A stretch of 49,062 nt of DNA, filler included, from Sphacelaria rigidula (GCA_964200075.2; 3 parts of 3 records of this genome joined end to end with filler, not necessarily neighbours in it), one strand, 5' to 3'. Positions 15,961 through 33,249 are shown, numbered from the whole stretch's first letter. Numbers and translations are program-made. Notes: a model not told the origin generated them from the letters alone.

Positions 15961-16185
15961 CTGTGACATCACGGGAGCGGGGGAGGGTTGGGGGGTACAA
16001 AATTCAAAATTCGACCTCGTGGCATACATCAGTCGTTAGTTAGTCGTAGCTAAGCGCACTTCTAGTAGTGAGGGCGTTCACATTTCCTCCCAGCTGTAAT
16101 AGCCTTCTGATGACGGGCACAACAGCAGCATGTCGCTTTCATTTTCACCGCAAGCGGATGCGATGTCTTTAATCGGAAATCCGTT

Positions 16186-16292: not shown

Positions 16293-16392
16293 NNNNNNNN
16301 NNNNNNNNNNNNNNNNNNNNNNNNNNNNNNNNNNNNTTAATTAATTAANNNNNNNNNNNNNNNNNNNNNNNNNNNNNNNNNNNNNNNNNNNN
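16293..16392. other. Artificial contig-joining linker (N44-TTAATTAATTAA-N44)
   Basis: Exactly 100 bp; TTAATTAATTAA at 16337-16348 gives stops in all six frames; identical to the linker at 32680-32779. Confidence 0.97.
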
Positions 16393-18988
16393 CTCGGAGT
16401 TCCTTCGGCATCAGGACGGCAGTCTCCCCTCTAGGTCTCTGTCTACTCTAGCGATACGCCTTCCCCACGTACAATTAAGGAACTGCTTATAGGATGAGAA
16501 GACCCATCTTCGGAGTTCGGGAATGCATACCCTGGTGAGTAAAACCCATCTTTTATATTTGTATGTTTCATATTCATGACAAGTGAACCTTTGTCAATAC
16601 TGGTCCAGGAGCTGAATCTCACGAGACTTTCTCAGACATATCCATAGGTGGAGTAAATCATATGAGGGGTACAATAAAGAAATGTCCTGAGGTGAACGGT
16701 TCACGACACTGTGAGGTGTGTTCGCAGCAGAGATGATGGACTCTTTGACCGCCAAGGTGGGGTCATCTGAGTCATAGCCAACTGTCAGATTAAAATAACG
16801 CCGATTCAAGACATAATCGACCTCGATGGTCAAAGGGTTACACCCTTTACCATCAGTATCATTTCGGAACAGTTTCGCCGGCCGATAGTTCAGGGGATCT
16901 AACCTCTTTGCCGCAGGGGAAGGGGAGGGGAGGGGGGTGCAAGTTTCCCGATCGTCAGTGAATACTTCTTGGATCGATCATACGTTTCTGCACATGTCTA
17001 GGACGGGCAACAAAACTCAACACGGGTAAGTATCACATTGATAGTCCAGATTGGTTCAATTATCGATCAAGTTCCTCTACCAATCGCTCAATGTTGCCCA
17101 CCTGGACATGAGGTCGTATCTTAATATGTGGCCATCAACCGTACACAAACAAAATATGCGGTGCTTTTTGCTCTCTGCATAACATTGGCCACCTACCAAC
17201 CCCCTCCTGCGCTGTCAAGGGCTGCGCACTGTAGCATAAAACTGAGGAGATATGAACCGGTATATACTGCATGCAGTGGAGGGCAAGGGCGCTGTACTGC
17301 TGGACCGCTTGTACTATCCAATGGCTGATGCAACGAGTTCGTCTGTACGGTGTAGCAACGGCGCGGTATCATAGAGTGAAGTTGAAATGATCTGACATGC
17401 AGTGTAACATCGAAACATTAAAAAGGTCCGCCGCCAACGCATTTAGAGTAAACGGACTGCTAACCTAAGGGGGGGAAGTACCTTTTCCGGGTACATCGCA
17501 ACAGCAGTATTCACCAGCGTGCACCACTAGATTGCGCATGACAGCATGTACCGCTGACTCGGCACAAAGACGTGTACACTTGTGGCTTTCAAAACGAAAT
17601 GGTTTAGGATCATCATGCACTAAGTTCCAAACAAGCTTACGACATCCGACTTTCCAACTGAAGACTGTTGTGCCTCTTGGAAACCAAAATGTCCGAAACC
17701 GCATTGACCAGCGGTGGACATCATAGGATTGGCAGACAGACAAGGCAGTCGGAGAGATGAAGCGCGGGAAAGAGCGAGTGAACATGTGGGCACCTGCGTT
17801 TGAACGCCATAGTAGTGTCTGTGCGCGGGTCTGGGCGAGAGCGGAGGGGTGGAACACTAGCACTGCCTGTACTCAATGATGCCACAAAGGAGCTGGGTCA
17901 CCCTCTTGTCCACACATCTGCCTCTTGGTAGTGAAGGCGTATGAGATACGCCAAACACTGCGGACGGTAAGGGTGAATCTTGCGTTCGTGTAGTAGTGGC
18001 ATGTGACACAGCCTGTTCGTGTTAAGGGGCTAAGTCGCAGAACCTTTGAGGAAACTCTTTAGAACCCCTTGAGTATGCAAAACACGAGGAACACGCAAAC
18101 GAATGACCCCGGATCAGATTGAACGCCATATTTTACCGTTTTTGAAAGCCTCCGCTCCCGTCCCCGGGCCAGACGCCTCACTATTTTGAGCCCTGACAGA
18201 GGAGAAAAGGTTAGAATAAAAATAGACCAATGGGGACCATTTTCACGGCGGGAGGCGACGGAACACATGCGCGCGTCAAAAATGTCACCCCGGTGCAATC
18301 AGATTAGTTTTGTCCAGTGAGGAACGTAACGGGTCAATTTTGTTCAACTTTTGGTGCACACGGCCAAAATCGGCACTTTCGTGCCTGAAGTCTATACAAA
18401 CAGAAATTGGCACCACCTGTGTATTTTTTAGGAATGGAGTCCCGCGCGCACCGGTCTGAAGAACACGACTCGGGCTTTTAGTTTTGCGTGAAAGCTGTGA
18501 ATACTCAACCACATGTCGTTCAAACACACCACCTTGACATTCACACCTTTCTATTGTACATACTACTACAAGAATAGTTCATGTTTATTGATTCCCGCAG
18601 GTCCCACCCGTAACAAAGAAAATAGACGTGCCCAACATGAACAAATCGGGGAACTAGGATCAGAGCCGGAAGAAAAAAGATCAAGATGCAAAAGTCAGAC
18701 TGAACGAGGAAAAGTTGAATATCAGAACGATATGAATGAGGACAAGGAGAAACCATCAAGCAGAACAAGGATCGAGATAACCAAAAAGGATACAAACTTG
18801 AACAGACATATATACCGCCTGATCAGCTACATACAAGCATAACGACATGACATTGGACACCCGAGAAGATTGCCCACGAAATGAAACGTTCGAGTAAACG
18901 CAACAAACGCAGCTACTACGCTACCCATGAGATCCACCGAGTGGTCTATTGGATTGCAGCAACGACGCATGACACTGAACCCTGTAAC

Positions 18989-19009
18989 CTAAACGGTAAG
19001 CGGGTCTCC
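18989..19009 (-). CDS. Putative terminal exon of the TPR-array gene (GDPLTV-stop)
   Basis: Degenerate copy of the array acceptor (ctacatgtcag|GGA GAC CCG CTT ACC GTT TAG), 286 nt downstream of the last TPR exon donor, close to the normal intron length; phase 0. Confidence 0.45.
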   Translation of the reverse strand, partial: GDPLTV

Positions 19010-19295
19010 CTGACATGTAGTTGACCACCCAGGAGACCCGGGTAATGGTGAAACCTACAACGCCGGCCAGATGCTCAAGCCACCACCCCGCACAGGTGTG
19101 CAGCCGTCTGCGCTGTGTGTATAGGGCCGAGGGTATTATGGCCGATCTCGACGGCCCAGAGCTACAACGGGTTGGCCTCGCCGCACACACCCCGCCAGTT
19201 AACCTTAGCCCACAGGATCAGCGAACAACATCAACACCACACAAGCCATGGCGCACGTGGACATACGACAACTAAAATGCTCCACCGCCTCTTAC

Positions 19296-19421
19296 CTGGG
19301 CTTCCAACAAATCAGCACGACCGTGGAGCGTGGTGACCGAGCTAGGGTGTTCCGAGCCGAGGATCTTCTCATGGATCCTCTGGCAGCGGGCGTATAGTGA
19401 CTCGGCCTCCGCATGCTTGCC
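19296..19421 (-). CDS. TPR exon cassette A (last in transcript order)
   Basis: 126 nt, AG/GT flanked, open: GKHAEAESLYARCQRIHEKILGSEHPSSVTTLHGRADLLEAQ. Confidence 0.85.
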
Positions 19422-19714
19422 CTGAAACATAGCACACGACGCAGAATCATCCTACAATTGTCAACGTCGGACCTACAACGCCACCAGACGCTCAAGCCAC
19501 CGCCCCGCACAGGTGTGCAGCCCGTCTACGCTGTGTGTACAGAGCCGAGGGTACTATGCCCGATCTCGACGGCTCAGAGCTATAACCGGTTAGCCTCGCC
19601 GCACACACCCTGTCAAGTCAACCCTGGCCCGCAGGACTAGCGAACAACATCAACACCACACGAGCTCCTTCGCACGTGAACATACGACTTCAACAAAGCT
19701 CCACCGCCCCTCAC

Positions 19715-19840
19715 CTGAGCTTCGACCAAACCAGCACGACCGTGAAGCGTGCCTGCCAGGTCCGGATGCTCCGGGCCGAGAACCTTCTCCCGGATCGCCT
19801 GGCACCGGTCGTACAGTGACTCGGCCTCTGCGTACTTGCC
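19715..19840 (-). CDS. TPR exon cassette B
   Basis: 126 nt, AG/GT flanked: GKYAEAESLYDRCQAIREKVLGPEHPDLAGTLHGRAGLVEAQ. Confidence 0.85.
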
Positions 19841-20134
19841 CTGGAACAGAGTACACGACGCACAAGCATCCCGCAACTATCAACGTCGGGCCTACAACGC
19901 CGGCCAGACGCGCAAGCCACCGCCCCGCACAGGTTTGCAGCCCGTCCACCCTGTGTGTGTAGAGCCGAGGGTACCATGACCGATCTCTACGGCTCAGAGC
20001 TATAGCGGGTTGACCTCGCCGCACGCACCCTATCAAGTCAACCTTGGCCCACAGGACCAGCGAACAATACCAACACCACACAAGCCATGGCGCACGTGGA
20101 CACACGACCACGAAAAAGCTCCATCGCCTCTTAC

Positions 20135-20260
20135 CTGAGCTTTCAACAAACCAGCACGACCGTGGAGGGTCGCGGCCAAGTCCGGGTGCTCCGGGCCAAG
20201 AACCTTCTCCCGGATCGCCTGGCACCGATCGTACAGTGACTCGGCCTCCGCATACTTGCC
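20135..20260 (-). CDS. TPR exon cassette C
   Basis: 126 nt, AG/GT flanked: GKYAEAESLYDRCQAIREKVLGPEHPDLAATLHGRAGLLKAQ. Confidence 0.85.
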
Positions 20261-20554
20261 CTGAAACGTAGTACACAACGCAGAGCCATCCTACAACTGT
20301 CAACGTCGGGTCTACAACGCCGGCCAGACGCGCAAGCCACCGCCCCGCACAGGTGTGCAGCCCGTCCACGCTGTGTGTACAGAGCCGACGGTACTATGCC
20401 CGATCTCGACGGCTCAGAGCTAAAACGGGTTGGCCTCGCTGAACGCACCCTGTCAAGTCAACCTTGGCCCACGGGACCAGCGAACAACATCAACACCACA
20501 CAAGCCATGCCGCACGTGAACACACGACTACAATGAGGGTCCACCGCCTCTTAC

Positions 20555-20680
20555 CTGAGTTTCCAACAAACCATCACGACCGTGGAGGGTCGCGGCCGAG
20601 TCCGGGTGTTCCAGGCCGAGGACCTTCTCCCGGATCGCCTGGCACCGATCGTGCAGTGACTCGGCCTCCGCATACTTGCC
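20555..20680 (-). CDS. TPR exon cassette D
   Basis: 126 nt, AG/GT flanked: GKYAEAESLHDRCQAIREKVLGLEHPDSAATLHGRDGLLETQ. Confidence 0.85.
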
Positions 20681-20973
20681 CTGAAACGTAGTACACGACG
20701 CATAACCATCCTACAACTGTCAACGTCGAACCTACAATCCTCACCAGACGCCCAAGCCACCGCCCCACACAGGTGCACACCTCGTTTATGCTTTGTGTAC
20801 AAAGCCGAGGGTACTATGGCCGATCTCGACGGCTCAGAGCTATAACGGGTTGGCCTCACCGCACACACCCTGCGGATCAACCCTGGCCCACGCGACCAAC
20901 GAACAACATTAACACCACACAAGCTCCTTCGCACGTGAACACACGACAACAATGAGGTTCCATCGCCTCTTAC

Positions 20974-21099
20974 CTGAGCTTCCAACAGACCAGCACGACC
21001 GTGGAGCGTGGTGGCCAAGCTAGGGTGCTCCGTGCCGAGGACCTTCTCACGGATCACCTGGCACCGGTCGTACAGTGACTCGGCCTCCGCATACTCGCC
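20974..21099 (-). CDS. TPR exon cassette E
   Basis: 126 nt, AG/GT flanked: GEYAEAESLYDRCQVIREKVLGTEHPSLATTLHGRAGLLEAQ. Confidence 0.85.
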
Positions 21100-21360
21100 C
21101 TGAAACGTAGTACATAACGCAGAAGCATCCTACAACTGTCGACGTCGAATCTACAACGTCGGCCAGACGTTCAAGCCAACGCCGCGGACAGGTGTGCATA
21201 CTTGGCCCGATCTCGACGGCTCAGAGCGACAACGTGGTGGCCTCGCCGCACGCACCCTGTCAGTCAACCTTGGCCCACGGGACCAGCGAACAACATCAAC
21301 ACCACACAAGCCATGGCGCAAGTGGACATACGACAACGAGAAAGCTCCATCGCCTCTTAC

Positions 21361-21486
21361 CTGAGCTTTCAACAGACCAGCACGACCGTGGAGCGTGGCG
21401 GCCAAGCTAGGGTGCTTCGGGCCGAGGACCGTTTCCCGTATCGCCTGGCACCGGTCGTGCAGTGACTCGGCCTCCGCATACTTGCC
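21361..21486 (-). CDS. TPR exon cassette F
   Basis: 126 nt, AG/GT flanked: GKYAEAESLHDRCQAIRETVLGPKHPSLAATLHGRAGLLKAQ. Confidence 0.85.
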
Positions 21487-21779
21487 CTGAAACGTAGTAC
21501 ACGACGCAGAATCATCCCGCAACTGCCAACGTCGGACCAGCAACGCCGGCCAGACGCTCTACCCACCGCCCCGCACAGGTGTGCAGCCCATCTGTGCTGT
21601 GTGTACAGGGCCAACGGTACCGTGCCCGATCTCGACGGCTCAGAGCGACAACGTGGTGGCCTCGCCGCACGCACCCTGTCAGTCAACCTTGGCCTACGGG
21701 ACCAGCGAACAACATCAACACCACACAAGCTCCATCGCAAGTGGACATACGACAACGAGAAAGCTCCACCGCCTCTTAC

Positions 21780-21830
21780 CTGAGCTTTCAACAAATCAGC
21801 ATGACCGTGGAGCGCGGCAGCATACTTGCC
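21780..21830 (-). CDS. TPR cassette G, internally deleted in frame (51 nt)
   Basis: tttTAG|GGC...CAG|gtaag; GKYAAALHGHADLLKAQ; 75 nt shorter than the other cassettes, frame preserved. Confidence 0.6.
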
Positions 21831-22123
21831 CTAAAACGTAGTACACCACGCATAACCACCCTACAGCTATCAACGTTGGACCTACAACGCCCGTAAGATG
21901 CTCAAGCCACCGCCCCGCACAGGTGTGCGACCCGCCCACGCCGTGTGTACAAAGCCGAGGGTACTATACCCGATCTCGACGGCTCAGAGCTATAACCGGT
22001 TGGCCTCGCCGCATGCACCCTGTCAGCCAACCCTGGCCCACAGGATCAGCGAACAATATCAATGCTATACAAGCTCCTCCGCAAGTGGACATACGACTAC
22101 GGAAAAGCTCTCCCGCTTCTCAC

Positions 22124-22249
22124 CTGAGCTTCCAACAAATCAGCACGCCCGTGGAGCGTGGCGGCCAAGCTAGGGTGCTCCGGGCCGAGGACCTTCTCAT
22201 GGATCGTCTGGCAGCGGTCGTACAGTGACTCGGCCTCCGCATACTTGCC
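22124..22249 (-). CDS. TPR exon cassette H
   Basis: 126 nt, AG/GT flanked: GKYAEAESLYDRCQTIHEKVLGPEHPSLAATLHGRADLLEAQ. Confidence 0.85.
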
Positions 22250-22540
22250 CTGAAACGTAGTACACGACGCAGAACCATCCTACGGCTGTCAACGTCGGAC
22301 CGACAACGCCGGCCAGACGCTCAAGCCACCGTCCCGCACAGGTGTGCAGCCCGTCTATGCTGTGTACAGAGCCGAGGGTACTATGCCCGATCTCGACGGC
22401 TCAGAGCTATAACGGGTCGGCCTCGCCGCACGCACCCTGTCAAGTCAATCCTGGCCTGCAGGACCAGCGAACAACATCAACACCACACAAGCTCCTTCGC
22501 ACGTGAAAATACAACAACGAGAAGCTCCACCGCCTCTCAC

Positions 22541-22666
22541 CTGAACTTTCAGTAAACCGGCACGACTAAGAAGTGCGGTGGTGACGCTAGGGTGCTCCGG
22601 GCCGAGGACCTTCTCCCGGATCGCCAGGCACCGGTCGTACAGTGACTCGGCCTCCGCATACTTGCC
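22541..22666 (-). CDS. TPR exon cassette I
   Basis: 126 nt, AG/GT flanked: GKYAEAESLYDRCLAIREKVLGPEHPSVTTALLSRAGLLKVQ. Confidence 0.85.
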
Positions 22667-22958
22667 CTGAAACGTAGTACACGACGCAAAACCGTCCCAC
22701 ACCTGTCAACGTCGGACCTAAAACGCCCGCCAGACGCTCGAGCCAGCGACGCACAGGTGTGCTGCCCGTTTATGCTTTGTGTACAGGGCCGAGGGTACTA
22801 TGGCCGATCTCGACGGCTCAGAGCTATAACGGGTTGGCCTCACCGCACACACCCTGTCAAGTCAACCCTGGCCCACAGGACCAGCGAGCATCATTAACAC
22901 CATACAAACTTCTTCGCACGTGGACATACGACTACAAGAAGGTTCCACCGCCTCTCAC

Positions 22959-23084
22959 CTGAGCTTTCAACAAACCAGCACGGTTGTGGAGCGTGGTGGC
23001 CAAGCTAGGGTGCTCCGAGCCGAGGATCTTCTCATGGATCCTCTGACAGCGGACGTATAGTGACTCCGCCTCCGCATACTTGCC
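22959..23084 (-). CDS. TPR exon cassette J
   Basis: 126 nt, AG/GT flanked: GKYAEAESLYVRCQRIHEKILGSEHPSLATTLHNRAGLLKAQ. Confidence 0.85.
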
Positions 23085-23397
23085 CTGAAACGTAGTATAC
23101 GACGCAGAAGCATCCTACAATTGTCAACGTCGAACTTACAACTGTCAACATCGCACCTCGATGCCTGCTAAACGCTCAAGCCACCGTCCCGCACAGGTGT
23201 GCAGCCCGTCCAGGCTGTGTGTACAGAGCCGAGGGTATTATGGCCGACCTCGACGGCCCAGAGCTACAACGGGTTGGCCTCGCCGCACCCACCCTGTCAG
23301 CCAACCTTGGCCCACAGGATCAGCGAACAACATCGACACCGCACAAGTCATGGCGCACGTGGACACACGACAACGAGACGGCCCCCCCGCCTCTCAC

Positions 23398-23523
23398 CTG
23401 AGCTTCCAACAGACCAGCACGACCGTGGAGCGTGGCGGCCAAGCTAGGGTGCTCCGGGCCGAGGACCTTCTCCTTGATCGCCTGGCACCGGTCGTACAGT
23501 GACTCGGCCTCTGCATACTTGCC
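23398..23523 (-). CDS. TPR exon cassette K
   Basis: 126 nt, AG/GT flanked: GKYAEAESLYDRCQAIKEKVLGPEHPSLAATLHGRAGLLEAQ. Confidence 0.85.
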
Positions 23524-23832
23524 CTGAAACGTAGTATACGATGCATAACCACCCTACAACTGTCAACGTCGGACCGACAACGCCCGCAAGACGCTCAAGC
23601 CACTGCCCCGCTCAAGTGTGCGGTCTGTCTACGCCGTGTGTACAAAGCCGAGGGTACTTCACACGAGGGTACTATGCCCGATCTCGACGGCTGTGAGCGA
23701 CAACGGGTTGGCCTCGCCGCACGCACCCTGTCAAATCAACCCTGGCCCACGGGTCCAGCCAACAACATCAGCACCACACAAGCTCCATCGCACGTGTACA
23801 CACGACTACGAGAAAACTCCACTGCTTTTTAC

Positions 23833-23958
23833 CTGAGCTTTCAACAGACCAGCACGGTTGTGAAGCGTGACGGCAAAGCTCGGGTGCTCCGGGCCGAGAA
23901 CCTTCTCTTTGATCGCTTGACACCGGTCGTACAGTGACTTGGCCTCCGTATACTTGCC
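23833..23958 (-). CDS. TPR exon cassette L
   Basis: 126 nt, AG/GT flanked: GKYTEAKSLYDRCQAIKEKVLGPEHPSFAVTLHNRAGLLKAQ. Confidence 0.85.
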
Positions 23959-24249
23959 CTGAAACGTAGTACACGACGCGAAAGCATCCTACAACTGTCA
24001 ATGTCAGGCCTACAACGTCGGTCAGACGCTCAAGCCAGCGCCGCAAAGGTGTGCGGCCCGTCTACGATGTGTATACAGGGTCAAGGGTACCATGCCCGAT
24101 CTCGACGGTTCAGAGCTATAAACGGTTGGCCCAGCCGCACACACCCTGTCAGTCAATCTTGGCCCACAGGACCAGCGAACAACATCAACGCCACACAAGC
24201 TCCTTCGCAGGTGAAAATACGACTACGAAAAAGTTTCAATGCCTCTCAC

Positions 24250-24375
24250 CTGAGCTTTCAACAGACCAGCATGGTTGTGGAGCGTGGCGGCCAAGCTAGG
24301 GTGCGCTGAGCCGAGGGCCTTCTCCTTGATCGCCCGACAGCGGTCGTACAGTGACTCGGCCTCCGCATACTTGCC
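24250..24375 (-). CDS. TPR exon cassette M
   Basis: 126 nt, AG/GT flanked: GKYAEAESLYDRCRAIKEKALGSAHPSLAATLHNHAGLLKAQ. Confidence 0.8.
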
Positions 24376-24406
24376 CTGAAACGTAGTACACGACGCAAAA
24401 CCATCC

Positions 24407-25431
24407 TTGTCGTTGTTGTTGTCTTCACATGAAAAACCGTTCCGATATCTGCGCGGTACATTCGTACTGGGCATCTGATGCGGACACCTTCCGTGGTCAC
24501 AGGCTAGCAAAAAACCAAAAACTAAAATAGACCTAGATTAAAACTCACAAAACGCGATACAAGCAAAACAGGGATAAAAAATAAAGAAGAAAGAAAGTAC
24601 ATATGGCCAACCTCAGGAGATCCGGTGCCGCAGGTGGCCATTCGGACTTCAGGGGGTGGTACCCGGCTTTCCAACTCGACGCGCGACGCCAAGTAAAAGA
24701 TAAACACAGGGTCCGACTACGGGCGAGACTCAAGGCCCCAAATACCGCCAATAAAAAAACTAAGAATCGCAAGGTTTCATCTTTCGGCCTCTCGAGGGAC
24801 AGCCGTACGTACAAGCATACCAGGTGTATCAAGACAAGCCCTGCATGACATAACGACACCCTTCATCGGGGGGGTTCACCCCATCCCCCCCTTCTCTGGA
24901 CCGTCGTCATTGTTGTGTTATGCGGGCTTCGTTGGTCTCCCGTCTAATCGCACGCAGTCGGCTGCCCTCTTTTTTATTTCTGTGCCATGAGATCATGAAC
25001 CTCTCCGCTCCCTGCAGCACTCCCGCGTGCCACGGCAAGCCCCCATTCTTATTTGCTACTGAGGTCCATAGGTCTCGGTCAATTCCGAATGTCTGGGGGT
25101 TGTCGTCCGTAGATCCGTCTGTGGCTCCGAAAGCGTGGAGATCGTCTCTCAGGCACTTTTGCCAGTTTTGTTCCGGGCACCCTGGTCCTGGATCTTCCCC
25201 CGCGACTAGTGTTCCGGATGCTATTCGCTTGGGTAATCGTCCGTCCGGTTGTCTAGCCAGGGCTCCCGCGAACAGCAGTCGTCGTTGCCGGACGACGGCT
25301 TCGGCACTTCGGCATCCGGTCTTCTTGAGGGCCTGTGGATACGACAGCTGTCGGTACGTGCCGCGCACTCGGCGGTACCCGATGGCTCGCAGGAGGAGCC
25401 GGTAGTGCACCTTTCTGAGAAAGTCGTAGTG
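24407..25431 (-). mobile_element. 5'-truncated non-LTR retrotransposon (LINE, RTE-like) inserted in a TPR-array intron
   Basis: ORF remnant 25431-24907 (..HYRLLLRAIGY..LSYPQALKKTGCRSAEAVVRQRRLLFAGALARQPDGRLPKRIASG..PGCPEQNWQKCLRDDL..) resembles the C-terminal region that follows RT in RTE-type LINEs. It has a ~500-nt 3' UTR and a (CAA)n-like tail (gacaacaacaacgacaa) at 24423-24407. Removing 1025 nt restores a 293-nt intron; no clear TSD. Confidence 0.8.
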
Positions 25432-25693
25432 CACAACTGCCAACGTCGGACCTGCAACGCCGGCCAGACGCTCTACCCACCGCCCCGCACAGGTGTGCAG
25501 CTCGTCTACGCTGTGTGTACAGGGTCAACGGTACCATGCCCGATCTCAACGGCTCAGAGCTACAACGTGGTGGCCTCGTCGCACCCACCCTGTCAACCAG
25601 CCCTGACCCACGGGACCAGCCAACAACATCAACACCACACAAGCCCCGTCGCACATGGATATCCTACATCGAGAAAGCTCCACGGCCTCTTAC

Positions 25694-25819
25694 CTGGGCT
25701 TCCAACAGAAAAGCGCGGTTGTGGAGCGTGGCGGCCAAGCTAGGGTGCTCCGGGCCGAGGACCTTCTCCTTGATCGCCTGGCACCGGTCGTACAGTGACT
25801 CGGCCTCCGCATACTTGCC
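25694..25819 (-). CDS. TPR exon cassette N
   Basis: 126 nt, AG/GT flanked: GKYAEAESLYDRCQAIKEKVLGPEHPSLAATLHNRAFLLEAQ. Confidence 0.85.
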
Positions 25820-26000
25820 CTGAAACGTAGTACACGACGCAGAGCCACTCTACAACTGTCAACGTCGGACCGACAACGCCGGCCGGACGCTCAAGCCACC
25901 GCCCCGCACGGGTGTGCGACCCGTCTACGATGTGTGTACAGAGCCGAGGGTACTATGCCCGATCTCGACGGCTCAGAGTTATAACCGGTTGGTCTCGCCG

Positions 26001-27283
26001 CACTTCACATGCTTCAAATCCCAGTGACCGTCATCACCTCAAGAATCTAATGGGAGAAACGGATTTGAAAACGGTTCCAACGGGGTCGAACTATACCCGA
26101 TACCGTAATGTTTCGGTGATGTGGAGTTTGGCGTCGTCTAATTTTCTCTCACGATACGCAGGAAAGGCTCATAGAGTCTCGTGACGATTTCCCTCATATC
26201 TGTTGTAAAAAAGCTCAGATCATCCTCAAACTTGGCAGTTCCGTAGCTATTGATGCTCCAAATGGGAAAATTGTGTTCTTGGCAAGGGTTCAATATTTCT
26301 TCGTTCTATACCAGCTTCCGGGGGTCTCAGTACAAAGACCCCCGGAAGGCGGTACAGAATGCCTCGAAAGAAAAACAAATATCATGATGCATCTCGGGAT
26401 GGTCTAAGGAACACATATACGAAGTTTGGTGGAGAAAATTGAAAATCTCATACGATTTTTCTTACTTTGACGTAAAACTCACCCTAAAATACGTTTTATA
26501 CTCAAACCAAGTAGTTAGAAGTTTGCACGTTTTAAGCTCACATCCTCGCACAAACGCGCAGATCTTCATGCATTTCTTAGGAGTCAGACCCTGAAACTTT
26601 GCACAAATGTGCGATGAATCATACCGCAAGTTTTGATCTACGAGGTTATTCTGATCGTTGAAATTTTTACCGTTTTTCGGGGGTCCGACGGGATCCAAGT
26701 CGTTTTCCCGAAGTCGTCCATTCTGGGATCCCGGAAAACCGGCACTACGGTACTTTTTTCATTTTTTTTGCGAACGCACTGTCGCCGCAAAACCCAAGGT
26801 AGAACGCCACAAAGTTTCGTCCCCGAAATCTATTTACTGGTGCTTGAATTTTTATGTTCACGTCAAAAGAAGGCCCAAAAACGCCATTTTTATATACTAA
26901 AATCTAGGAGTTTGCCGTTTCACCGTGGCACGGCAAGGTTCATCGCACGAACGCGAAGAACTTCACGCCGTTTTGAGGAGTTAGACCCTGAGATTTTGCA
27001 CAGCTATGCTATGGGTCATTACGCAATTTTCGATTGACGAGGGTTTTTTTCTTTTTTTACCGTTTTACGGGGGTCCGACTGGATCACAGTTTCCCCGAAA
27101 AACTGGAACCCCGGAAAAACGATGAAAAAAGACAAAAAGTAAAAAAAAAAACTCGACCTTGGGAAGTTGCGTAATGACCCGAAGAACATCTGTGCAAAAC
27201 TTCAAGGTCTAACTCCTTCAAACGGCGTGAAGTTTTGCCGATGAGTGTTTTGGGTTTTTTTTTCCGTGAACCAGCCGGTACAC
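26001..27283 (+). mobile_element. Non-autonomous AT-rich element with internal direct and inverted repeats, inserted in a TPR-array intron
   Basis: Interrupts the intron consensus after ctcgccgcac and replaces ~90 nt of it. Homologous to the reverse complement of 31402-32288. Carries a ~390-bp internal duplication (e.g. 26575-26700 vs 26962-27085) and an inverted pair at 26962-27050 / 27145-27232. Confidence 0.8.
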
Positions 27284-27304
27284 AAAAGCTCCACCGCCTC
27301 TTAC

Positions 27305-27430
27305 CTGAGCTTTCAATAAACCAGCACGACTGTGAAGCGTGGTGACCGAGCTAGGGTGCTCCGGGCCGAGGACCTTCTCCCGGATCGCCTGGCACCGCTT
27401 GTACAGTGACTCGGCCTCCGCATGCTTGCC
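27305..27430 (-). CDS. TPR exon cassette O
   Basis: 126 nt, AG/GT flanked: GKHAEAESLYKRCQAIREKVLGPEHPSSVTTLHSRAGLLKAQ. Confidence 0.85.
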
Positions 27431-27723
27431 CTGAAACGTAGTACACGACGCACAACCTTCCCACAACAGTCAACGTCCGACCTACAATGCCCGCCAGACG
27501 CTCAAGCCAGCGCCGCACAGGTGTGCGACCCGTCTACGCTGTGTGTACAGGGCCAACGGTACTGTGCCCGATTTCGACGGCTCAGAGCTATAACCGGTTG
27601 GCGTCGCCGCACGCACCCTGTCAGTCAACCTTGACCCTCAGGACCAGCCAACAACATCGACACCACACAAAAGCTCCTTCGCACGTGGACACACGACCAC
27701 GAGAAAGCTCCACCGCCTCTCAC

Positions 27724-27849
27724 CTGAGCTTCCAACAGGCCAGCACGACCGTGGAGCGTGGCGGCCAAGCTAGGGTGCTCCGGGCCGAGGACCTTCTCCC
27801 GGATCGCCTGGCACCGGTCGTATAGTGACTCGGCCTCTGCATACTTGCC
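27724..27849 (-). CDS. TPR exon cassette P
   Basis: 126 nt, AG/GT flanked: GKYAEAESLYDRCQAIREKVLGPEHPSLAATLHGRAGLLEAQ. Confidence 0.85.
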
Positions 27850-28142
27850 CTGAAACGTAGAACACGACGCATAACCATCCCACAACTATCAACGTCGGAC
27901 CGACAACGCCGGCCAGACGCTCAAGCCACCGCCCCGCACAGGTGTGCAGCCCGTCCACGCCGTGCGTACAGGGCCAAGGGTACTATGCCCAATCTCGACG
28001 GCTCAGAGCTATAACGGACTGACCTCGCCGCACGCACCCTGTCAGTCAACCCTGGCCCACGGGACCAGCGAACAACATCAACACCACACAAGCCACGGCG
28101 CGCCTGGACATACGACTACGAAAAAGCTCCATCGCCTCGCAC

Positions 28143-28268
28143 CTGAACTTCCAACAAATCAGCACGCCCGTGGAGCGTGGCGGCCAAGCTAGGGTGCTCC
28201 GGGCCGAGGATCTTCTCATAGATCGCCTGGCAGCGGTCGTACAGTGACTCGGCCTCCGCATACTTGCC
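28143..28268 (-). CDS. TPR exon cassette Q
   Basis: 126 nt, donor gtgcg: GKYAEAESLYDRCQAIYEKILGPEHPSLAATLHGRADLLEVQ. Confidence 0.85.
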
Positions 28269-28562
28269 CTGAAACGTAGTACACAAGGCGAAAACATCCT
28301 ACAACTGTCAACGTCGAACGTACAATGTCGGCCAGACGCGCAAGCCACCGCCCCCCACAGGTGTACAGCCCGTCCACGCCGTGTGTACAGGGCCGAGGGT
28401 ACTATGCCCGATCTCGACGGCTCAGAGCTATAACGGGTCGGCCTCGCCGCACGCACCCTGTCAAGTCAACCTTGGCCCACGGGACTAGCGAACAACATCG
28501 ACACCACACAAACCATGGCACACGTGGACATACGACTACAAGAAGGTTCGACCGCCTCTTAC

Positions 28563-28688
28563 CTGAGCTTTCAACAAACAAGCGAGGTCGTGGAGCGTGG
28601 CGGCCAAGCCGGGGTGCTCCGGGCCGAGGACCTTCTCCCGGATCGCCTGGCACCGGTCGTACAGTGACTCGGCCTCCGCATACTTACC
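28563..28688 (-). CDS. TPR exon cassette R (first visible in transcript order)
   Basis: 126 nt, AG/GT flanked: GKYAEAESLYDRCQAIREKVLGPEHPGLAATLHDLACLLKAQ. Confidence 0.85.
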
Positions 28689-28839
28689 CTGAAATGGAGT
28701 ACACGACGCAGAAGCATCCTACAACTGTCAACATCGGACCTACAACAGCGGCCAGACGCTCGAGCCACCGCCCCGCACAGGTGCGCCGCCCGTCTTGGTC
28801 ATACGAGATCAATCAAGCCTATATGCTCACCAGTTCCGA

Positions 28840-31290
28840 TACATCCGGCATAAGCAGATGGTACGTGATCCTTATTTTTAATTGATGAGGCGCGAGTTCT
28901 TGATAAAAATGTTTTCGTCGTCTGCCATGAAGCGCGACTCTGCTGTATTCACCTCGAACCCCTCATTCGTGAGACACAATCCCTTGCTACATTTTCCGAG
29001 CCTTTTGTTCGTGTGGCTCAACTGCTGCGCACGGTCACAAATCTTATCTGTGAATGATCACATGACATATATTCACGAGGGCTCGGCGGCTTACACCGCG
29101 AAGCGCTGTTGATCGATACGAAGATAGTTGATGAAATTGTGCCATGCCATCATGTATGTTTATGTATGTCTTGGTATAGACGTAGGTAAAACACATTCAT
29201 CGGCGCTTGCAACAGAGACGGATGGGATACGGTATTTTTGATAACGACACAAATATTTCAAAAGCTGAAAAAATCACCCAAGCATGCAGTCATGCAAACT
29301 TCTTTTTGTCAGGTACGTGCAGGACCGTAACCGGGGTATCTACTCGGTTGTTCCCCGTACCTGGATCTTTCATGAGATCTGTAAGATACCCATACCCGGC
29401 CCCGGAATCTCTACAAATTCTGTACATGTTCCTCACAACGCTGGGGGCCCGAGTACATCCTCGTTAAAATACCTGGGCGCGGGTGCAGGCGTCCATACCC
29501 GTACCCCGAGCTTCTGCAAGCTCTGGAAGACGTTTCATTCCGCTAGAATTTGCGTAAGTTGCGTACCACTCCCAAACACGGACCCGGCGTACCCGTAACC
29601 TACAGTACACAACCTTGCAATGGTGGGTAACGATTGTTTTCTTGGGTCCCAGTACGAGCGGCAGCTAGCTCTTCGAAGACAGTCGTGTGGTGTTGAGTTG
29701 ACGCGAAGCAAAGAATTGCCACAGCCAGGCATGCATAATATGTCTGAATGTATCAGGGGAGGCCTTCGGAAAGATGAGTAACAATGGGGGGAAGGCGTGA
29801 ATAATGATCAACTAATAACTTGAAGCGAACGAAAAAACGTTTGAACGAAATGCTCCACCCCTCCGTGCCAGCTCCTAGAGAACGTACATGTAGTCGTCCT
29901 AGCGCTCGAGGCAAAAGTTGCTTTGTCTTCAGATTTGTTCTTGTTGGGAGACGGGGCCGATTTGTTGTTCATGATGGATTCAAAGAATGAAGGGTTAATG
30001 TAAAAGCAGTACACGAAATGAACTACTTGAAGCAAGCATGTCCATCGTGCGACCGCATTTTTGCAAATGGCATGGTTCCTTCGAGTCTTCCAATGTGTTG
30101 GAACCAAACCTATGGTGTTTATCATATGAAAGAAGCTGAATCTGGTTCTCTTCACGCTTGAGAGAAAACTTCCACATTGTCTCACACCCCTGGGAAGGTG
30201 TCTTCATCTGAACCAAATAAGACAGAAAAAAAACAGGGAAACCAACAATAACGGGGGAGAGTGAGCTGGAGATAAAATATCATTACATAATTGTACTGGA
30301 ACGAAATACAACCGACGGGGCCAGTTCCCAAACCAAATAAACCTTCGTTATCGCTCGAGAGAAAAGTTGCATTTCAGTAATTTAACAATGTTATTAGGGC
30401 ACCAAGTTTGTCTACAACAAGGAAAACGAATTGGGGAAGGCTAAAAGCAAAAAAAATAAAGAATGAAGAGAAGAAGTGCTGAAACGACATGTGTCCATTC
30501 CCGTCAGCTCCTAATTTTTAAGAGGAGCGAAATAATGGAGTACTCTTAGTGCTACGAAGAAAAAATGCGCTCCATTTTACGTCCTTGAGAGACTCATTTT
30601 AAAGCAAACACACCCCAGACAAAGGATTACACGGGTGACTAGTGCACTACGCGTACACTATCAAATAATGCATCTGTAATGAAACGCAGTCTTCGATACT
30701 GTACGCAGTACACTTCGCGCCGATGCAATCGATTGCTCAGGGTGCGGAATCAAACGATACAAGGGTGTACTCATGATCATGCTCCCACATCCTCCGACGA
30801 GCATAATGCAGTCACCAAAATGTTGTCTGCTCCAACCTTCGGTTCCCTGTGCGGCTGGAAAGACATGGAGCAGCGCTTCTCTCTTCATGATTTGTCGAAG
30901 TGCAGTATACATGGACACGCGCACGCACCGTAACAAACTTACTCCGACGCAGACCTTCCTTTTCCTGTAGCATCATTCATGTCTCCTCGTGCTCAGCAGT
31001 AGCATTGTTTCATACCAGCAACGTCATGCAGCGGGATATATATCGTTGTCAAGAATGGAACTCTGAGTTCAAGTACAGACGAGCTATACCGTAACGTGGA
31101 CCTAGAACTCATTTTCCGAAACATATTTTCTAGACTGAAAGCCCTGAACATTTTGAGCCATGGTTCATAGTGATTTGGAAATACCGTGACAGGTTCCTCA
31201 TGCTTCTGCAACACAAACAGGCCATACCCGGGACATAATCCGGGGTTGCGATTTCTCACCAACTCTTTGCTCAATTCCAGATGCTCGCAT
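28840..31290 (-). pseudogene. Possible decayed, intron-containing DNA transposase (hAT-like) remnant
   Basis: Frameshifted, stop-interrupted coding-like blocks at ~31290-30660, ~30207-29820 and ~29047-28840. Weak motifs occur in the order expected for hAT: MYTALRQIMKRE..QGTEGWS (cf. TTDGWS) then NAVARWTCLL (cf. V.TRWNS). Resemblance judged by eye only. Confidence 0.3.
29313..29617. repeat. Degenerate MITE-like repeat rich in (t)acccg(t/g) motifs, ending ctacagtacacaaccttg
   Basis: Recurrent tacccg/taccc motifs; the terminus resembles the ends of the element at 46448-46696. Confidence 0.45.
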
Positions 31291-31401
31291 ATGCACCCCG
31301 TGGTGCTGATCGAGAATCCCGCGTGGTCTGAGCTAGTTTTCTAGCATATACAGAACCATCCTATCCAGCTATAGAGCAGTCCGGTATCTATGGACGCTGG
31401 A

Positions 31402-32288
31402 GGCTGGTTCACGCTGATCAACCGAAGAAAACTCATCCGCACAAGTTCACGCCGTTTTTAGGATTTAGACTCTTGAATTTTGCACAATTTTGCTATGGGT
31501 CATTACGCAACTTTCGAAGGTCCGATTTTGTTTTTACCTCTATACTTTCTCACCGTTTTTCGGGGGTCCCCAGGTTTCTGAGGAAGCTTGGATCCCGTTC
31601 GACTCATGAAAAAAAGTGACAAGTCAAGAAGAAAAAAAAAACTCGTTCATCGACAGTTGCATAATGACCCATAGCACATTTGTGCAGAGTTACAAGGTCT
31701 CGCTCCTGAAAACGGCGTGAAGTATTGCGCGTTTGTGCGATAACGCGAGCTTGAAACATGCACACCCGTAACTACTTGTTTATAGTATAAAAACGTATTT
31801 TGGGGGTGGATGTGACCTTCAGGCGACAAAAGCTGCGTGAGGTTTTCGAGTTCCTCGACCGGACTTCGTACATATGTTCCTCGGACTACCCCGGGAGGCA
31901 TCATTTTATTTTATTTTTAGGCATTCCGTTCCGCCTTCCGGGGTCTTTACACTGCGACCCCCGGAAGCCGGTAGAGCACGGAGAAAGTTTGAAAAATGTC
32001 AAGAATACAGTTTTCTATTTGCAGCATCAATACCTATAGAACCGCCAAGTTTGAGGGCGATCTGAGCATTTTTTACGACATGCACAAGGGAAACTGTTAC
32101 GAGGCTCCCTGGGTCTTTCTTGCGTATTATCGGTGGAAATTTGACGACGCCAAAACCCCACATCACATCACCGAAGCATCAAGGTTTCGGGTATAATTCG
32201 ACATTGTCGTAACCGTTCTGAATCTTTTTTTTTTTCGTTAGTTTCCCGAGCTGATGGCGGTCACTACGATTTGAAGCATGTGGAAAGT
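31402..32288 (-). mobile_element. Second, inverted copy of the 26001-27283 element, lacking the internal duplication
   Basis: The reverse complement begins cactttccacatgcttcaaatcgtagtgaccg and ends gtgaaccagcc, colinear with 26001-27277; internal inverted pair at ~31445-31530 / 31635-31722. Confidence 0.8.
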
Positions 32289-32679
32289 GGGTGAAAACTT
32301 GGCTTAAGATTCGTATTTTCCATTTCCGAACAAATTGAAGGGAGCTGATTGGTCGAGGTACGTTTTCGCCCTTAGCGCCACCACTGCAGCCTTGAACACA
32401 AATCCGGCTAGGTCACGCTCTTCAGCTCTCCATGGCAGTCAGTACGATACAATGTATGCGACTACAGTGTAGGTGTTGCGAAGGGCATTTGCTGATGACA
32501 TAATTTGGGGTGATGGCCGTCACCTAGCCTGCACGGCTTTCGAGTGCCAAGAAAGGATATATATATATATATATATATATTTACTCACACTTTGAACCCC
32601 TCCTCTTCCTCGGGATGAATCCGTGGTCTCAAGGGATCAACCCGTTTCTCCCCCGGCACGTGCCTTTCATTTTGGTCTC

Positions 32680-32779
32680 NNNNNNNNNNNNNNNNNNNNN
32701 NNNNNNNNNNNNNNNNNNNNNNNTTAATTAATTAANNNNNNNNNNNNNNNNNNNNNNNNNNNNNNNNNNNNNNNNNNNN
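32680..32779. other. Artificial contig-joining linker (N44-TTAATTAATTAA-N44)
   Basis: 100 bp, TTAATTAATTAA at 32724-32735. Confidence 0.97.
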
Positions 32780-33249
32780 AGGGGTGCTGCTGTAATCCAA
32801 AGGGTAACGTGGACACAATAACTCCAAGCAACACCCGACGCACCACTCGTGCCGAGTGTGCATTCATTGTTGTCCTGTTGGTTACTACTGCGTACTTGGT
32901 TTAAACAACTTTCGGAGAATGCGGGTGTGTAAGAAGGGAGGCTGCCAATCTCCCGTACGCTGTACCTCCGTTCTGTCCTGACTGTCGTAGTGTTGCGGGA
33001 TCTTTTCCCCGAAATCCATCGGAGGCACGAGAAGCAGCACAGAACCGCTGCACACTTCACGCACAAGGGTGGGGGAAAGTGACAAGCTGCACAACTCCAT
33101 CTACAACTAGGGCAACGCTACTATAGTTACGCCTACCATGCATGGCTTGCACGTAAACTTCGGACTTGAAAAAATCGGAACGTTGTCCCGCGTTTCCCGA
33201 CAGACGGTGAGCCTGAACAAAAACTGCGGACCATGGAAGACAAGCGTAC

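What the first reader, a model, noticed from the sequence alone, without database searches (positions are those of the whole stretch)
19054..28795. Array of 18 interchangeable one-TPR exon cassettes: candidate combinatorial receptor-diversification system
Seen: 17 exons of exactly 126 nt plus one in-frame-deleted copy, all phase 0-0, all with intact AG/GT and no stop or frameshift. Each encodes a distinct 42-aa TPR, and the ~293-nt introns are themselves alignable end to end. Established: exon-per-repeat arrays in brown-algal NB-ARC-TPR and ROCO-LRR genes were proposed as shuffled pathogen receptors (Zambounis et al. 2012, Mol Biol Evol), so the class is known, but to my knowledge its mechanism is not settled. 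Inference: any subset of cassettes splices in frame and the homologous introns are recombination substrates, so the locus could build a repertoire of TPR solenoids by exon skipping and/or DNA rearrangement.
Basis: partly seen in the sequence, partly recalled or inferred. Interest (0 to 1): 0.85.

Follow-up and report, generated by a model that had tools for sequence, protein, structure and literature searches.

The report
Brown-alga TPR exon-cassette array

Summary
On the minus strand, 19054-28800 carries 18 phase-0 cassettes: 17 of 126 nt and one of 51 nt. All have AG/GT, none has a stop, and they give 18 distinct peptides.

Each cassette is a kinesin-light-chain-type TPR (Pfam TPR_12/TPR_10; PDB). 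The closest proteins are Ectocarpus NB-ARC-TPR proteins at 83-86% identity.

Units are about 85% alike and neighbours are not closer than non-neighbours. Exons change about as fast as introns, yet there are no stops (P~0.002), no lost splice sites (P~0.004) and no frameshifts. So the cassettes were kept as coding exons.

One exact splice, cassette 17 to 18, appears in two probable RNA runs and not in two DNA runs.

The window is three contigs joined by linkers. The array's 16.3-kb contig holds no NB-ARC.

Cassette skipping and DNA rearrangement were not tested. Both ideas are already in print (Zambounis 2012; Teng 2023, title only). Verdict: new member of a known kind, interest about 0.3.

The parts
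19054..28800 (-). Whole tandem array, about 18.1 units of about 419 nt. It begins inside an intron-like unit (last ~110 nt of the intron, 28689-28800) and ends inside one (first ~241 nt, 19054-19295).
   Evidence: TRF; sequence; unit alignment
28563..28688 (-). Cassette 1, 126 nt
   Evidence: Pfam TPR_12 E 6.6e-11
28143..28268 (-). Cassette 2, 126 nt
27724..27849 (-). Cassette 3, 126 nt
   Evidence: Pfam; queries
27305..27430 (-). Cassette 4, 126 nt
26004..27278 (.). Repeated element inserted in intron 4. It replaces about 88 nt of the intron, has an internal 100-nt hairpin, and has an inverted copy at 31428-32282.
   Evidence: depth in DNA runs hundreds of times the single-copy level; sub-threshold Rfam miRNA-precursor matches
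25694..25819 (-). Cassette 5, 126 nt
   Evidence: Pfam
24407..25431 (-). High-copy repeat inserted cleanly in intron 5. It has a 205-codon open frame (24907-25524 includes some flanking intron) and ends in a CAA-rich tail. My reading, from memory of such elements, is a 5'-truncated retroelement.
   Evidence: no Pfam hit; depth about 5000 times single copy in X5
24250..24375 (-). Cassette 6, 126 nt
23833..23958 (-). Cassette 7, 126 nt
23398..23523 (-). Cassette 8, 126 nt
22959..23084 (-). Cassette 9, 126 nt
22541..22666 (-). Cassette 10, 126 nt
   Evidence: Pfam
22124..22249 (-). Cassette 11, 126 nt
21780..21830 (-). Cassette 12, 51 nt. An in-frame 75-nt deletion removes codons 4-28. It has a TAG acceptor. 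By the 2012 paper's criteria it counts as an inactivated exon.
   Evidence: criterion in PMC3341825 section 16
21361..21486 (-). Cassette 13, 126 nt
20974..21099 (-). Cassette 14, 126 nt. It holds an internal CAG|GT 42 nt from its start.
   Evidence: Pfam
20555..20680 (-). Cassette 15, 126 nt
20135..20260 (-). Cassette 16, 126 nt
19715..19840 (-). Cassette 17, 126 nt. Seen spliced to cassette 18.
   Evidence: joint 19420->19714 (cut +1), skips 293, GT..AG on the minus strand, in X1 and X2
19296..19421 (-). Cassette 18, 126 nt, the last one. If the following intron-like stretch is not removed, the frame stops after 7 more codons.
   Evidence: Pfam
28831..28851 (-). Speculative 21-nt first coding piece: an ATG followed by a GTGAGC donor in phase 0, which would join cassette 1 in frame. 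No cassette holds a Met codon.
   Evidence: read by eye; peptides; no RNA support
16293..16392 (.). Contig linker (44 N, TTAATTAATTAA, 44 N). This is the low-coordinate end of the array's contig.
32680..32779 (.). Contig linker of the same form. This is the high-coordinate end of the array's contig.

Best explanation
The array is the germline TPR repeat domain, or a large part of it, of a brown-algal gene of the exon-per-repeat TPR type found in NB-ARC-TPR candidate receptors.

Each 126-nt phase-0 exon encodes 42 residues of a kinesin-light-chain-type TPR. By the Pfam and KLC alignments, a cassette starts in the middle of a repeat. It holds the second helix of one TPR, the LGPEHP-like turn and the first helix of the next. 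So every TPR is completed across a splice junction, and all junctions are equivalent.

The array arose by duplication of a ~419-nt exon-plus-intron unit. The units then diverged to about 85% identity with some mosaic exchange between them. Selection kept the reading frame, the splice sites and 16 scaffold positions, and replacements piled up at a few positions (17, 40, 34, 23, 28, 30, 37).

In the transcript the cassettes are joined neighbour to neighbour to give a long TPR solenoid that binds a protein or peptide ligand.

Shown: the anatomy, the family of the repeat, the constraint, and one neighbour splice. Inferred: the ligand-binding role, a receptor role, a complete gene, and diversification on an evolutionary rather than a somatic time scale.
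For: Anatomy.

Repeat family: 6 of 6 cassettes pass TPR_12, matching from profile position 17, and TPR_10 matches from position 16. All 16 PDB hits are kinesin light chain TPR domains or related light-chain-type TPR repeats; the best is KLC1 at E 3.5e-21.

Relatives: the best identities are 86% (P0002, carries PF00931 NB-ARC) and 83% (P0003, named NB-ARC and TPR repeat-containing protein of Ectocarpus siliculosus).

Constraint, from parsimony steps per site on the unit tree: codon positions 1.33 / 0.98 / 1.45 against 1.39 for introns, and 0 steps at the 4 GT/AG sites. At intron rates 5.8-6.6 stop-creating events are expected and none is seen (P 0.001-0.003). At the splice dinucleotides 5.45 events are expected and none is seen (P 0.004). 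Introns hold 10 small indel events, 9 of them not multiples of three; exons hold 1, and it is in frame.

Protein-level pattern: 81 replacement and 52 silent steps. Sixteen codons never change, against 6.1 expected under an even rate. Codon 17 has 8 replacements (P 0.037 after correction). Pairwise dN/dS is 0.37 overall.

Expression and splicing: a 215-nt contig of X1 with no mismatch joins cassette 18 to cassette 17 exactly at the GT..AG intron 19422-19714. X2 shows the same joint. DNA runs X5 and X7 have depth 0 for it. Relative to the repeats in the same stretch, array bins are 20-300 times richer in X1 than in the DNA run X5 (my ratio from table 2).
Against: No NB-ARC, no pre-TPR linker and no C-terminal capping repeat lie on the array's contig. 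No cassette has a Met codon. So a complete gene is not demonstrated.

Cassette 12 is truncated and would break the helix register if included.

X1 and X2 are only guessed to be RNA. All runs were Logan contigs, which cannot show level, strand or transcript ends. Several X1/X2 contigs include whole introns, for example 27405-27769 and 21820-22152. Some X1/X2 contigs carry variant letters, so part of the signal may come from an allele or a paralog.

The neutral-rate tests use parsimony on a FastTree tree of sequences that show some recombination (PHI p 0.027). Conversion from functional paralogs could also keep frames open.
Confidence: 0.62

Rival explanations
1. Combinatorial splicing system. 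Cassettes are skipped in many combinations, so that one locus yields a repertoire of TPR solenoids, possibly regulated by pathogen challenge.
For: All 18 cassettes are phase 0-0 with equivalent junctions. The truncated cassette 12 would best be skipped. Cassette 14 holds an in-frame internal donor. Papers that cite Teng et al. 2023 say NB-ARC-TPR genes use alternative splicing of TPR exons, and PMC11378527 reports up to nine transcripts for Ectocarpus ROCO genes (section 15; passages).
Against: Not one skipping joint was listed. The only array joint among the 15 shown is neighbour to neighbour; 44 were not shown. Contigs drop rare forms and break at shared 31-mers, so this is a weak test. Splice sites look uniformly strong, and no intron structure with covariation was found that could direct a choice: 5 of 79 predicted pairs have compensatory changes, and the covariation term is -2.44 of -55.5 kcal/mol.
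Confidence: 0.15
2. Headless orphan array. A fragment of a TPR exon array was copied into repeat-rich DNA. It is now either a decaying relic or an untranslated reservoir of cassettes for gene conversion into NB-ARC-TPR genes.
For: The array starts and ends inside intron-like sequence. The flanks and two introns are full of high-copy repeats. In one search, 13 of the 30 rows I read as brown-algal (by source name, or unnamed eukprot records taken as such by similarity) lack PF00931. The reservoir idea is in print (PMC3341825 section 28; PMC11378527 section 15).
Against: Frames and splice sites were preserved over about 15% divergence against neutral expectation. Replacements avoid scaffold positions. 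One spliced junction is seen. The contig ends only 3.9 kb upstream of the array, so an NB-ARC exon may simply lie beyond it.
Confidence: 0.18
3. Somatic or germline DNA rearrangement. The homologous introns serve as recombination substrates, and cassette number and order change within an individual's lifetime.
For: The introns are 78-91% identical over about 293 nt. Nearest relatives of a unit differ between its exon, its 5' intron half and its 3' intron half, and PHI gives p 0.027, so exchange has happened at some time. The hypothesis was stated by Zambounis et al..
Against: No unit pair exceeds 90% identity and neighbours are not more alike than others (permutation p 0.095), so there is no recent turnover. 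No array-internal DNA joint was listed in X5 or X7. PMC11378527 states that somatic recombinant loci, dedicated recombinases and clonal immune cells have not been reported in brown algae.
Confidence: 0.03
4. Assembly artefact. Dispersed TPR exons were collapsed or chained into one array.
For: The window is stitched from three contigs. DNA depth in 21287-24001 is 3-7 times the flank level, and variant letters occur there.
Against: All 18 units are distinct and at most 90% alike. Both array edges and several inner stretches match DNA-run contigs without a mismatch. The unit phase is perfectly regular.
Confidence: 0.02

Closest known systems
Ectocarpus NB-ARC-TPR genes with repetitive 42-aa TPR exons (Zambounis et al. 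2012, PMC3341825; Teng et al. 2023, Plant J 114:246, not held)
   Same: It has 126-nt, 42-aa, phase-0 exons, one per repeat, and the intervening introns are repetitive. A truncated exon sits on the coding strand. The nearest proteins are 83-86% identical per cassette.
   Different: No NB-ARC domain, pre-TPR linker or C-terminal cap was found on the array's contig. The species is not Ectocarpus: the neighbouring ferrochelatase exon is 78.6% identical to the Ectocarpus sp. 12 protein and 80% to those of Laminaria and Scytosiphon. That exon lies on another contig of the window, so this assumes the three joined contigs come from one genome.
Kinesin light chain TPR domain (PDB 7ai4, 3nf1, 3edt and others); Pfam TPR_12 / TPR_10
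   Same: It has the same 42-residue repeat with a GKY..AE..Y..AL.I.EK.LG..HP pattern. One cassette hits KLC1 at E 3.5e-21 and passes the Pfam cut-offs.
   Different: KLC has six repeats and binds cargo peptides. This array has 17 full repeats, and the helix-A positions that in KLC are Asn-rich (recalled) are variable here.
Fungal NLRs with highly similar TPR/ANK/WD repeats (e.g. Podospora; PDB 4y6c; PMC4986451 seen in a search listing only)
   Same: They have long runs of near-identical KLC-type TPR repeats with a few hypervariable positions, thought to diversify by repeat recombination.
   Different: As I recall, the fungal repeats lie within one exon. Here every repeat is a separate exon with a homologous intron.
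Brown-algal LRR-ROCO genes (PMC3341825; PMC11378527)
   Same: They have one repeat per exon, with in-phase exons, exon shuffling and reported splice variants. Repeat-only loci are proposed as a reservoir.
   Different: They use LRR rather than TPR, with 72-nt phase-2 exons, and shuffled exons also lie on the non-coding strand.
Arthropod Dscam exon arrays and lamprey VLR cassette assembly
   Same: These are works-like comparisons only: tandem interchangeable cassettes that could yield many receptor forms.
   Different: Dscam uses mutually exclusive choice guided by intron RNA pairing, and no such conserved pairing was seen here. VLR uses somatic gene conversion, for which there is no evidence here.

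Membership tests
Kinesin-light-chain-type TPR repeat (Pfam TPR_12 PF13424 / TPR_10 PF13374) | Sequence match above the curated Pfam cut-off | tested here: met
   Six of 6 cassettes score 33.2-42.7 bits against the TPR_12 cut-off of 30.1. Five of 6 exceed the TPR_10 cut-off of 27.5.
Kinesin-light-chain-type TPR repeat (Pfam TPR_12 PF13424 / TPR_10 PF13374) | Similarity to solved TPR domains of that type | tested here: met
   All 16 PDB hits are KLC1, KLC2 or KLC-like TPRs, with E values from 3.5e-21 to 1.5e-11.
Brown-algal exon-per-repeat TPR loci (Zambounis 2012) | Successive phase-0 exons of identical length (126 nt, 42 aa), each carrying one repeat unit | tested here: met
   There are 17 exons of 126 nt and one of 51 nt, all in phase with AG/GT. 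The definition is in PMC3341825 sections 16 and 17.
NB-ARC-TPR gene family (Zambounis 2012) | N-terminal NB-ARC domain (PF00931 / IPR002182) in the same gene | tested here: inconclusive
   No NB-ARC was found among 87 ORFs of 45 aa or more flanking the array, nor in 486 tblastn HSPs from five query proteins (four NB-ARC-TPR proteins plus the TPR-only P0059) over the whole window. But the array's contig ends 3.9 kb upstream at a linker, so the domain may lie beyond it.
NB-ARC-TPR gene family (Zambounis 2012) | Closest relatives of the TPR part are NB-ARC-TPR proteins | tested here: met
   P0002 is 86% identical and P0003 is 83% identical. Both carry PF00931.
NB-ARC-TPR gene family (Zambounis 2012) | Divergent C-terminal capping repeat after the cassettes (seen in P0003, P0005, P0033) | tested here: not met
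   There was no credible match to the last 70 residues of 11 relatives in 16393-19060 or 28796-32679. The best E values, 0.006 and 0.016, belong to alignments with stop codons inside.
Cassette alternative-splicing receptor systems (Dscam-like; Teng 2023 claim for NB-ARC-TPR) | Several transcript forms with different cassette subsets from one locus | not testable with these tools
   Only contigs were available. One neighbour joint was seen, and 44 joints were not displayed. No RNA run is on record for this organism.
Somatic cassette assembly (VLR/VDJ-like) | DNA forms differing in cassette content between cells or tissues | not testable with these tools
   No array-internal DNA joint was listed in X5 or X7, but contigs drop rare variants.

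The most novel reading that the evidence does not exclude
The array is a stand-alone, NB-ARC-less cassette locus kept open by selection. It acts either as a donor reservoir that feeds TPR cassettes into NB-ARC-TPR genes by gene conversion (VLR-like in logic), or as a TPR-only adaptor whose cassette content is varied by splicing. The evidence leaves this open: the locus has no head or tail on its contig and lacks any Met codon, yet it shows preserved frames, preserved splice sites and mosaic exchange between units.
Probability: 0.08. Interest if true: 0.8.

Novelty: new member of a known kind. Interest (0 to 1): 0.3.

Why it matters
Brown algae are the only group known so far in which NLR-like receptors carry one repeat per exon. 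Whether that layout serves splicing-based or recombination-based diversification is still unsettled.

This locus adds one clean, long example: 18 cassettes that have been held open and spliceable through about 15% divergence. It could serve as a good test bed for long-read cDNA and long-read DNA work.

It does not change what is known about the class.

Tried and rejected
RNA runs and read laying:
- No RNA holder was listed for the stretch. X1-X4 are only guessed to be RNA.
- It could not show what follows cassette 18. A 473-nt X2 contig holds cassette 18 plus 342 letters that lie elsewhere. It also could not show what precedes cassette 1.
- Parts without cover in X1/X2 (16943-18028, 18572-19114, 28889-29431) are noted only here.

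Genome and earlier findings:
- No whole genome is held for this window, so paralog counts and NB-ARC loci elsewhere could not be examined.
- Earlier findings of the scan returned nothing by place, by sequence or by words.

Search for the missing head and tail of the gene:
- Sensitive tblastn for NB-ARC, linker or cap remnants in the flanks gave only weak alignments with stops inside. I rejected them as chance.
- Plus-strand frames through the array and frames inside the two insertions: 0 of 8 had a Pfam hit.
- The bacterial promoter and terminator scan upstream of cassette 1 gave counts at the shuffle level, and it does not apply to a eukaryote.

RNA features in the introns:
- Rfam gave only three sub-threshold miRNA-precursor matches, all in repeat hairpins. 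None was in the regular introns.
- The consensus fold of 15 introns showed no meaningful covariation.

Evolutionary tests:
- Higher-order repeat or block duplication: there was no consistent offset between most-similar units.
- Site-wise positive selection: only codon 17 survives correction. I make no claim of positive selection.

Papers:
- Teng et al. 2023 is not held.
- Supplementary tables of Zambounis 2012 are closed. Table 2, which lists other repetitive TPR loci, may name TPR-only loci like this one.

Full report
**1. What is there**

Tandem Repeats Finder reports overlapping arrays of period 417-420 from 19053 to 28794, with 80-86% matches. Reading the reverse strand and scanning it shows that the gene strand is minus and that there are 18 cassettes. 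The scan cut cassette 14 at an internal CAGGT. With its true end at 20974 it is 126 nt.

The tally is 17 exons of 126 nt and one of 51 nt. The short one is cassette 12, at 21780-21830, with an in-frame 75-nt deletion of codons 4-28. All 18 have an AG acceptor (17 CAG, 1 TAG) and a GT donor. None has a stop. All 18 nucleotide sequences and all 18 peptides differ.

Fifteen of the 17 introns are 261-313 nt and align end to end, with mean pairwise identity 0.840 over 105 pairs. The other two are 1485 and 1318 nt because repeated DNA was inserted:
- Intron 4 holds an element at about 26004-27278. It has an internal hairpin and an inverted copy at 31428-32282.
- Intron 5 holds a very high-copy element at 24407-25431 with a 205-codon frame and no Pfam hit.

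**2. The window is stitched**

Two 100-nt blocks, each made of 44 N, TTAATTAATTAA and 44 N, lie at 16293-16392 and 32680-32779. I read these as contig linkers with a six-frame stop; this is my interpretation of the form. The array therefore sits on a 16.3-kb contig (16393-32679).

Its apparent neighbours may not be true neighbours. These are a HECT/SPRY gene at 1931-16035 and a ferrochelatase first exon at 33249-33767. Only the first exon of ferrochelatase is in the window.

**3. What the cassettes are**

Six of 6 cassettes tested pass the Pfam TPR_12 cut-off, and 5 of 6 pass TPR_10. The matches begin at profile positions 17 and 16. One cassette searched against PDB sequences finds 16 chains, all kinesin light chain or KLC-like TPRs. 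The best is E 3.5e-21, with cassette residue 1 aligned to the G of the KLC GKY motif.

From what I recall of KLC structures, this means a cassette holds the second helix of one TPR, the turn, and the first helix of the next. Each TPR is thus completed across a splice junction.

A search of 5.8 billion proteins with one cassette gave 1330 hits. The best identities were 86% for P0002 (carries NB-ARC PF00931) and 83% for P0003 (named NB-ARC and TPR repeat-containing protein, Ectocarpus siliculosus). No hit was identical, so this locus is not in that protein collection.

**4. Is it a complete NB-ARC-TPR gene?**

This is not shown.
- Pfam on 87 open frames of 45 aa or more in 28700-32670 and 16400-19300 found no NB-ARC.
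- tblastn of five Ectocarpus-type proteins (four NB-ARC-TPR proteins plus the TPR-only P0059) gave 486 HSPs. All lay inside 19000-28800, and none came from the N-terminal parts of the four NB-ARC proteins.
- A laxer search with the N-terminal 700 and C-terminal 70 residues of 11 relatives gave only weak alignments with stops inside.
- The array begins in the last ~110 nt of an intron-like unit and ends after the first ~241 nt of one.
- No cassette has a Met codon.

A 21-nt ATG-to-GT piece at 28831-28851 would join cassette 1 in frame, but that rests on my reading alone. Because the contig ends 3.9 kb upstream of the array, an NB-ARC exon beyond it cannot be excluded. In one search, 13 of the 30 rows I read as brown-algal (by source name, or unnamed eukprot records taken as such by similarity) lack PF00931, so TPR-only models are common. 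Some of those are partial.

**5. History and constraint**

Whole units are 79-90% identical, with a mean of 84.6%. Neighbours are no more alike than other pairs (0.851 against 0.846, permutation p 0.095). There is no consistent offset that would indicate block duplication.

Nearest relatives differ between a unit's exon, its 5' intron half and its 3' intron half, and a PHI test gives p 0.027. Cassettes 2 and 11, and cassettes 3 and 8, are 97% identical although their whole units are 88% and 87% identical. So the units are old and have exchanged pieces.

On a FastTree tree, parsimony steps per site are 1.33, 0.98 and 1.45 for the three codon positions and 1.39 for introns. There are no steps at the four GT/AG sites. 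Using intron rates:
- 5.8-6.6 stop-creating changes are expected in the exons and none is present (P 0.001-0.003).
- 5.45 changes are expected at the splice dinucleotides and none is present (P 0.004).
- Introns carry 10 small indel events, 9 of them not multiples of three. Exons carry one, and it is in frame. By my arithmetic about 4 frameshifts would be expected, giving P about 0.02.

Replacements number 81 against 52 silent steps. Sixteen codons never change (6.1 expected), while codons 17, 40, 34, 23, 28, 30 and 37 take 5-8 replacements each. Only codon 17 survives correction. Pairwise dN/dS is 0.37, rising to 0.44 in codons 27-42.

These figures carry caveats. They use parsimony, the tree is a single tree of recombining sequences, and conversion from paralogs could also keep frames open. 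Taken together, they say the cassettes have been kept as spliced coding exons with a fixed scaffold and a few free positions.

**6. Expression**

No run is on record as RNA. Four runs were laid.

X5 and X7 behave as DNA. Depth is flat at about 30 and 15 on unique sequence. Error-free contigs bridge both array edges: 18488-19176 in X5, 18770-19176 in X7, and 28656-31508 in X5.

X1 and X2, which are one study, behave as RNA. There is no cover on several unique flanking bins. By my ratios from table 2, array bins are 20-300 times richer relative to the repeats than in X5. A joint from 19420 to 19714 (cut +1) skips 293 nt with CT..AC ends, which is exactly intron 19422-19714 with GT..AG on the minus strand. 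In X1 it lies in a 215-nt contig without a mismatch. X2 shows it too. X5 and X7 have depth 0 for it.

Against a simple picture, X1 and X2 also hold contigs with whole introns (27405-27769, 21820-22152, 21690-22152). Some carry variant letters that minority DNA contigs share, so an allele or a close paralog contributes. No cassette-skipping joint is among the 15 joints listed, and 44 were not displayed. Contigs cannot show rare isoforms, strand or transcript ends.

**7. Other things looked for**

- The regular introns have no Rfam match.
- Their consensus fold has no meaningful covariation: 5 of 79 pairs, term -2.44 kcal/mol.
- Plus-strand frames have no Pfam hit: 0 of 8.

**8. Comparison with what is known**

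Zambounis et al. 2012 (PMC3341825; I read the abstract and sections 11, 16, 17, 27, 28) describe 24 Ectocarpus NB-ARC-TPR genes. Thirteen of them have 42-aa TPR exons and truncated exons on the coding strand. The paper proposes a reservoir of exons and somatic recombination.

Teng et al. 2024 (PMC11378527; abstract, section 15, passages) state that no somatic recombinant loci or recombinases have been reported. They say that combinatorial alternative splicing is the simpler explanation, as in NB-TPR genes, citing Teng et al. 2023 (Plant J 114:246). That paper is not held; I saw its title only. PMC12879055 (passages only) repeats this.

**9. Verdict**

The array is a new member of the known brown-algal exon-per-repeat TPR kind, from a brown alga that is not Ectocarpus. 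That inference rests on a ferrochelatase exon lying on another contig of the window, 78.6% identical to the Ectocarpus sp. 12 protein and 80% to those of Laminaria and Scytosiphon.

It has been held open and spliceable, and at least one neighbour splice is seen. Membership in the NB-ARC-TPR gene family proper is not established, because no NB-ARC lies on its short contig. Combinatorial splicing and DNA rearrangement remain untested here.

Interest is about 0.3.

Noticed in passing
window 16293-16392 and 32680-32779: Two 100-nt blocks of 44 N, TTAATTAATTAA and 44 N. The window appears to be three contigs joined by stop-codon linkers, so gene neighbourhood across them is not reliable.
   Followed up: yes
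window 33249-33767 (-): Only the first coding exon of a ferrochelatase is present, 78.6-80% identical to brown-algal proteins over 70 residues. The remaining ~400 residues match nowhere in the window.
   Followed up: partly
window 1931-16035 (-): A large gene with SPRY and HECT domains (HECT E 6.5e-46) lies on the first contig. It is probably an E3 ubiquitin ligase.
   Followed up: no
window 26004-27278 and 31428-32282: The repeat inserted in intron 4 has an inverted second copy about 4-6 kb upstream of the array and an internal 100-nt hairpin. It gives sub-threshold Rfam matches to plant miRNA precursors (43 bits against a cut-off of 160). It looks like a hairpin-forming transposon.
   Followed up: partly
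window 24407-25431: The repeat in intron 5 reaches a summed depth of about 170,000 in a DNA run whose single-copy depth is about 30. It is therefore one of the most abundant repeats of this genome.
   Followed up: no
window 20673-22152 and 27844-28082: Contigs of the probable RNA runs carry 4-10 variant letters here. At 21783 and 21788 part of the DNA-run contigs share them. This suggests a second, 97-99% identical copy (allele or paralog) that is the expressed one for these units.
   Followed up: no
window 19295-19425: A 473-nt contig of X2 holds cassette 18 without a mismatch, followed in gene direction by 342 letters that do not lie next to it. This could be a splice to an exon outside the laid stretch, or a paralog.
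   Followed up: no
window 22124-22249 vs 28143-28268; 23398-23523 vs 27724-27849: Cassette pairs 11/2 and 8/3 are 97% identical although their whole units are only 88% and 87% identical. This hints at exon-centred conversion or stronger constraint.
   Followed up: partly
window 36063-36115 and 48985-49014: There is a long G run next to an 8-N gap, and a long C run near the window end. These may be assembly or sequencing trouble spots.
   Followed up: no
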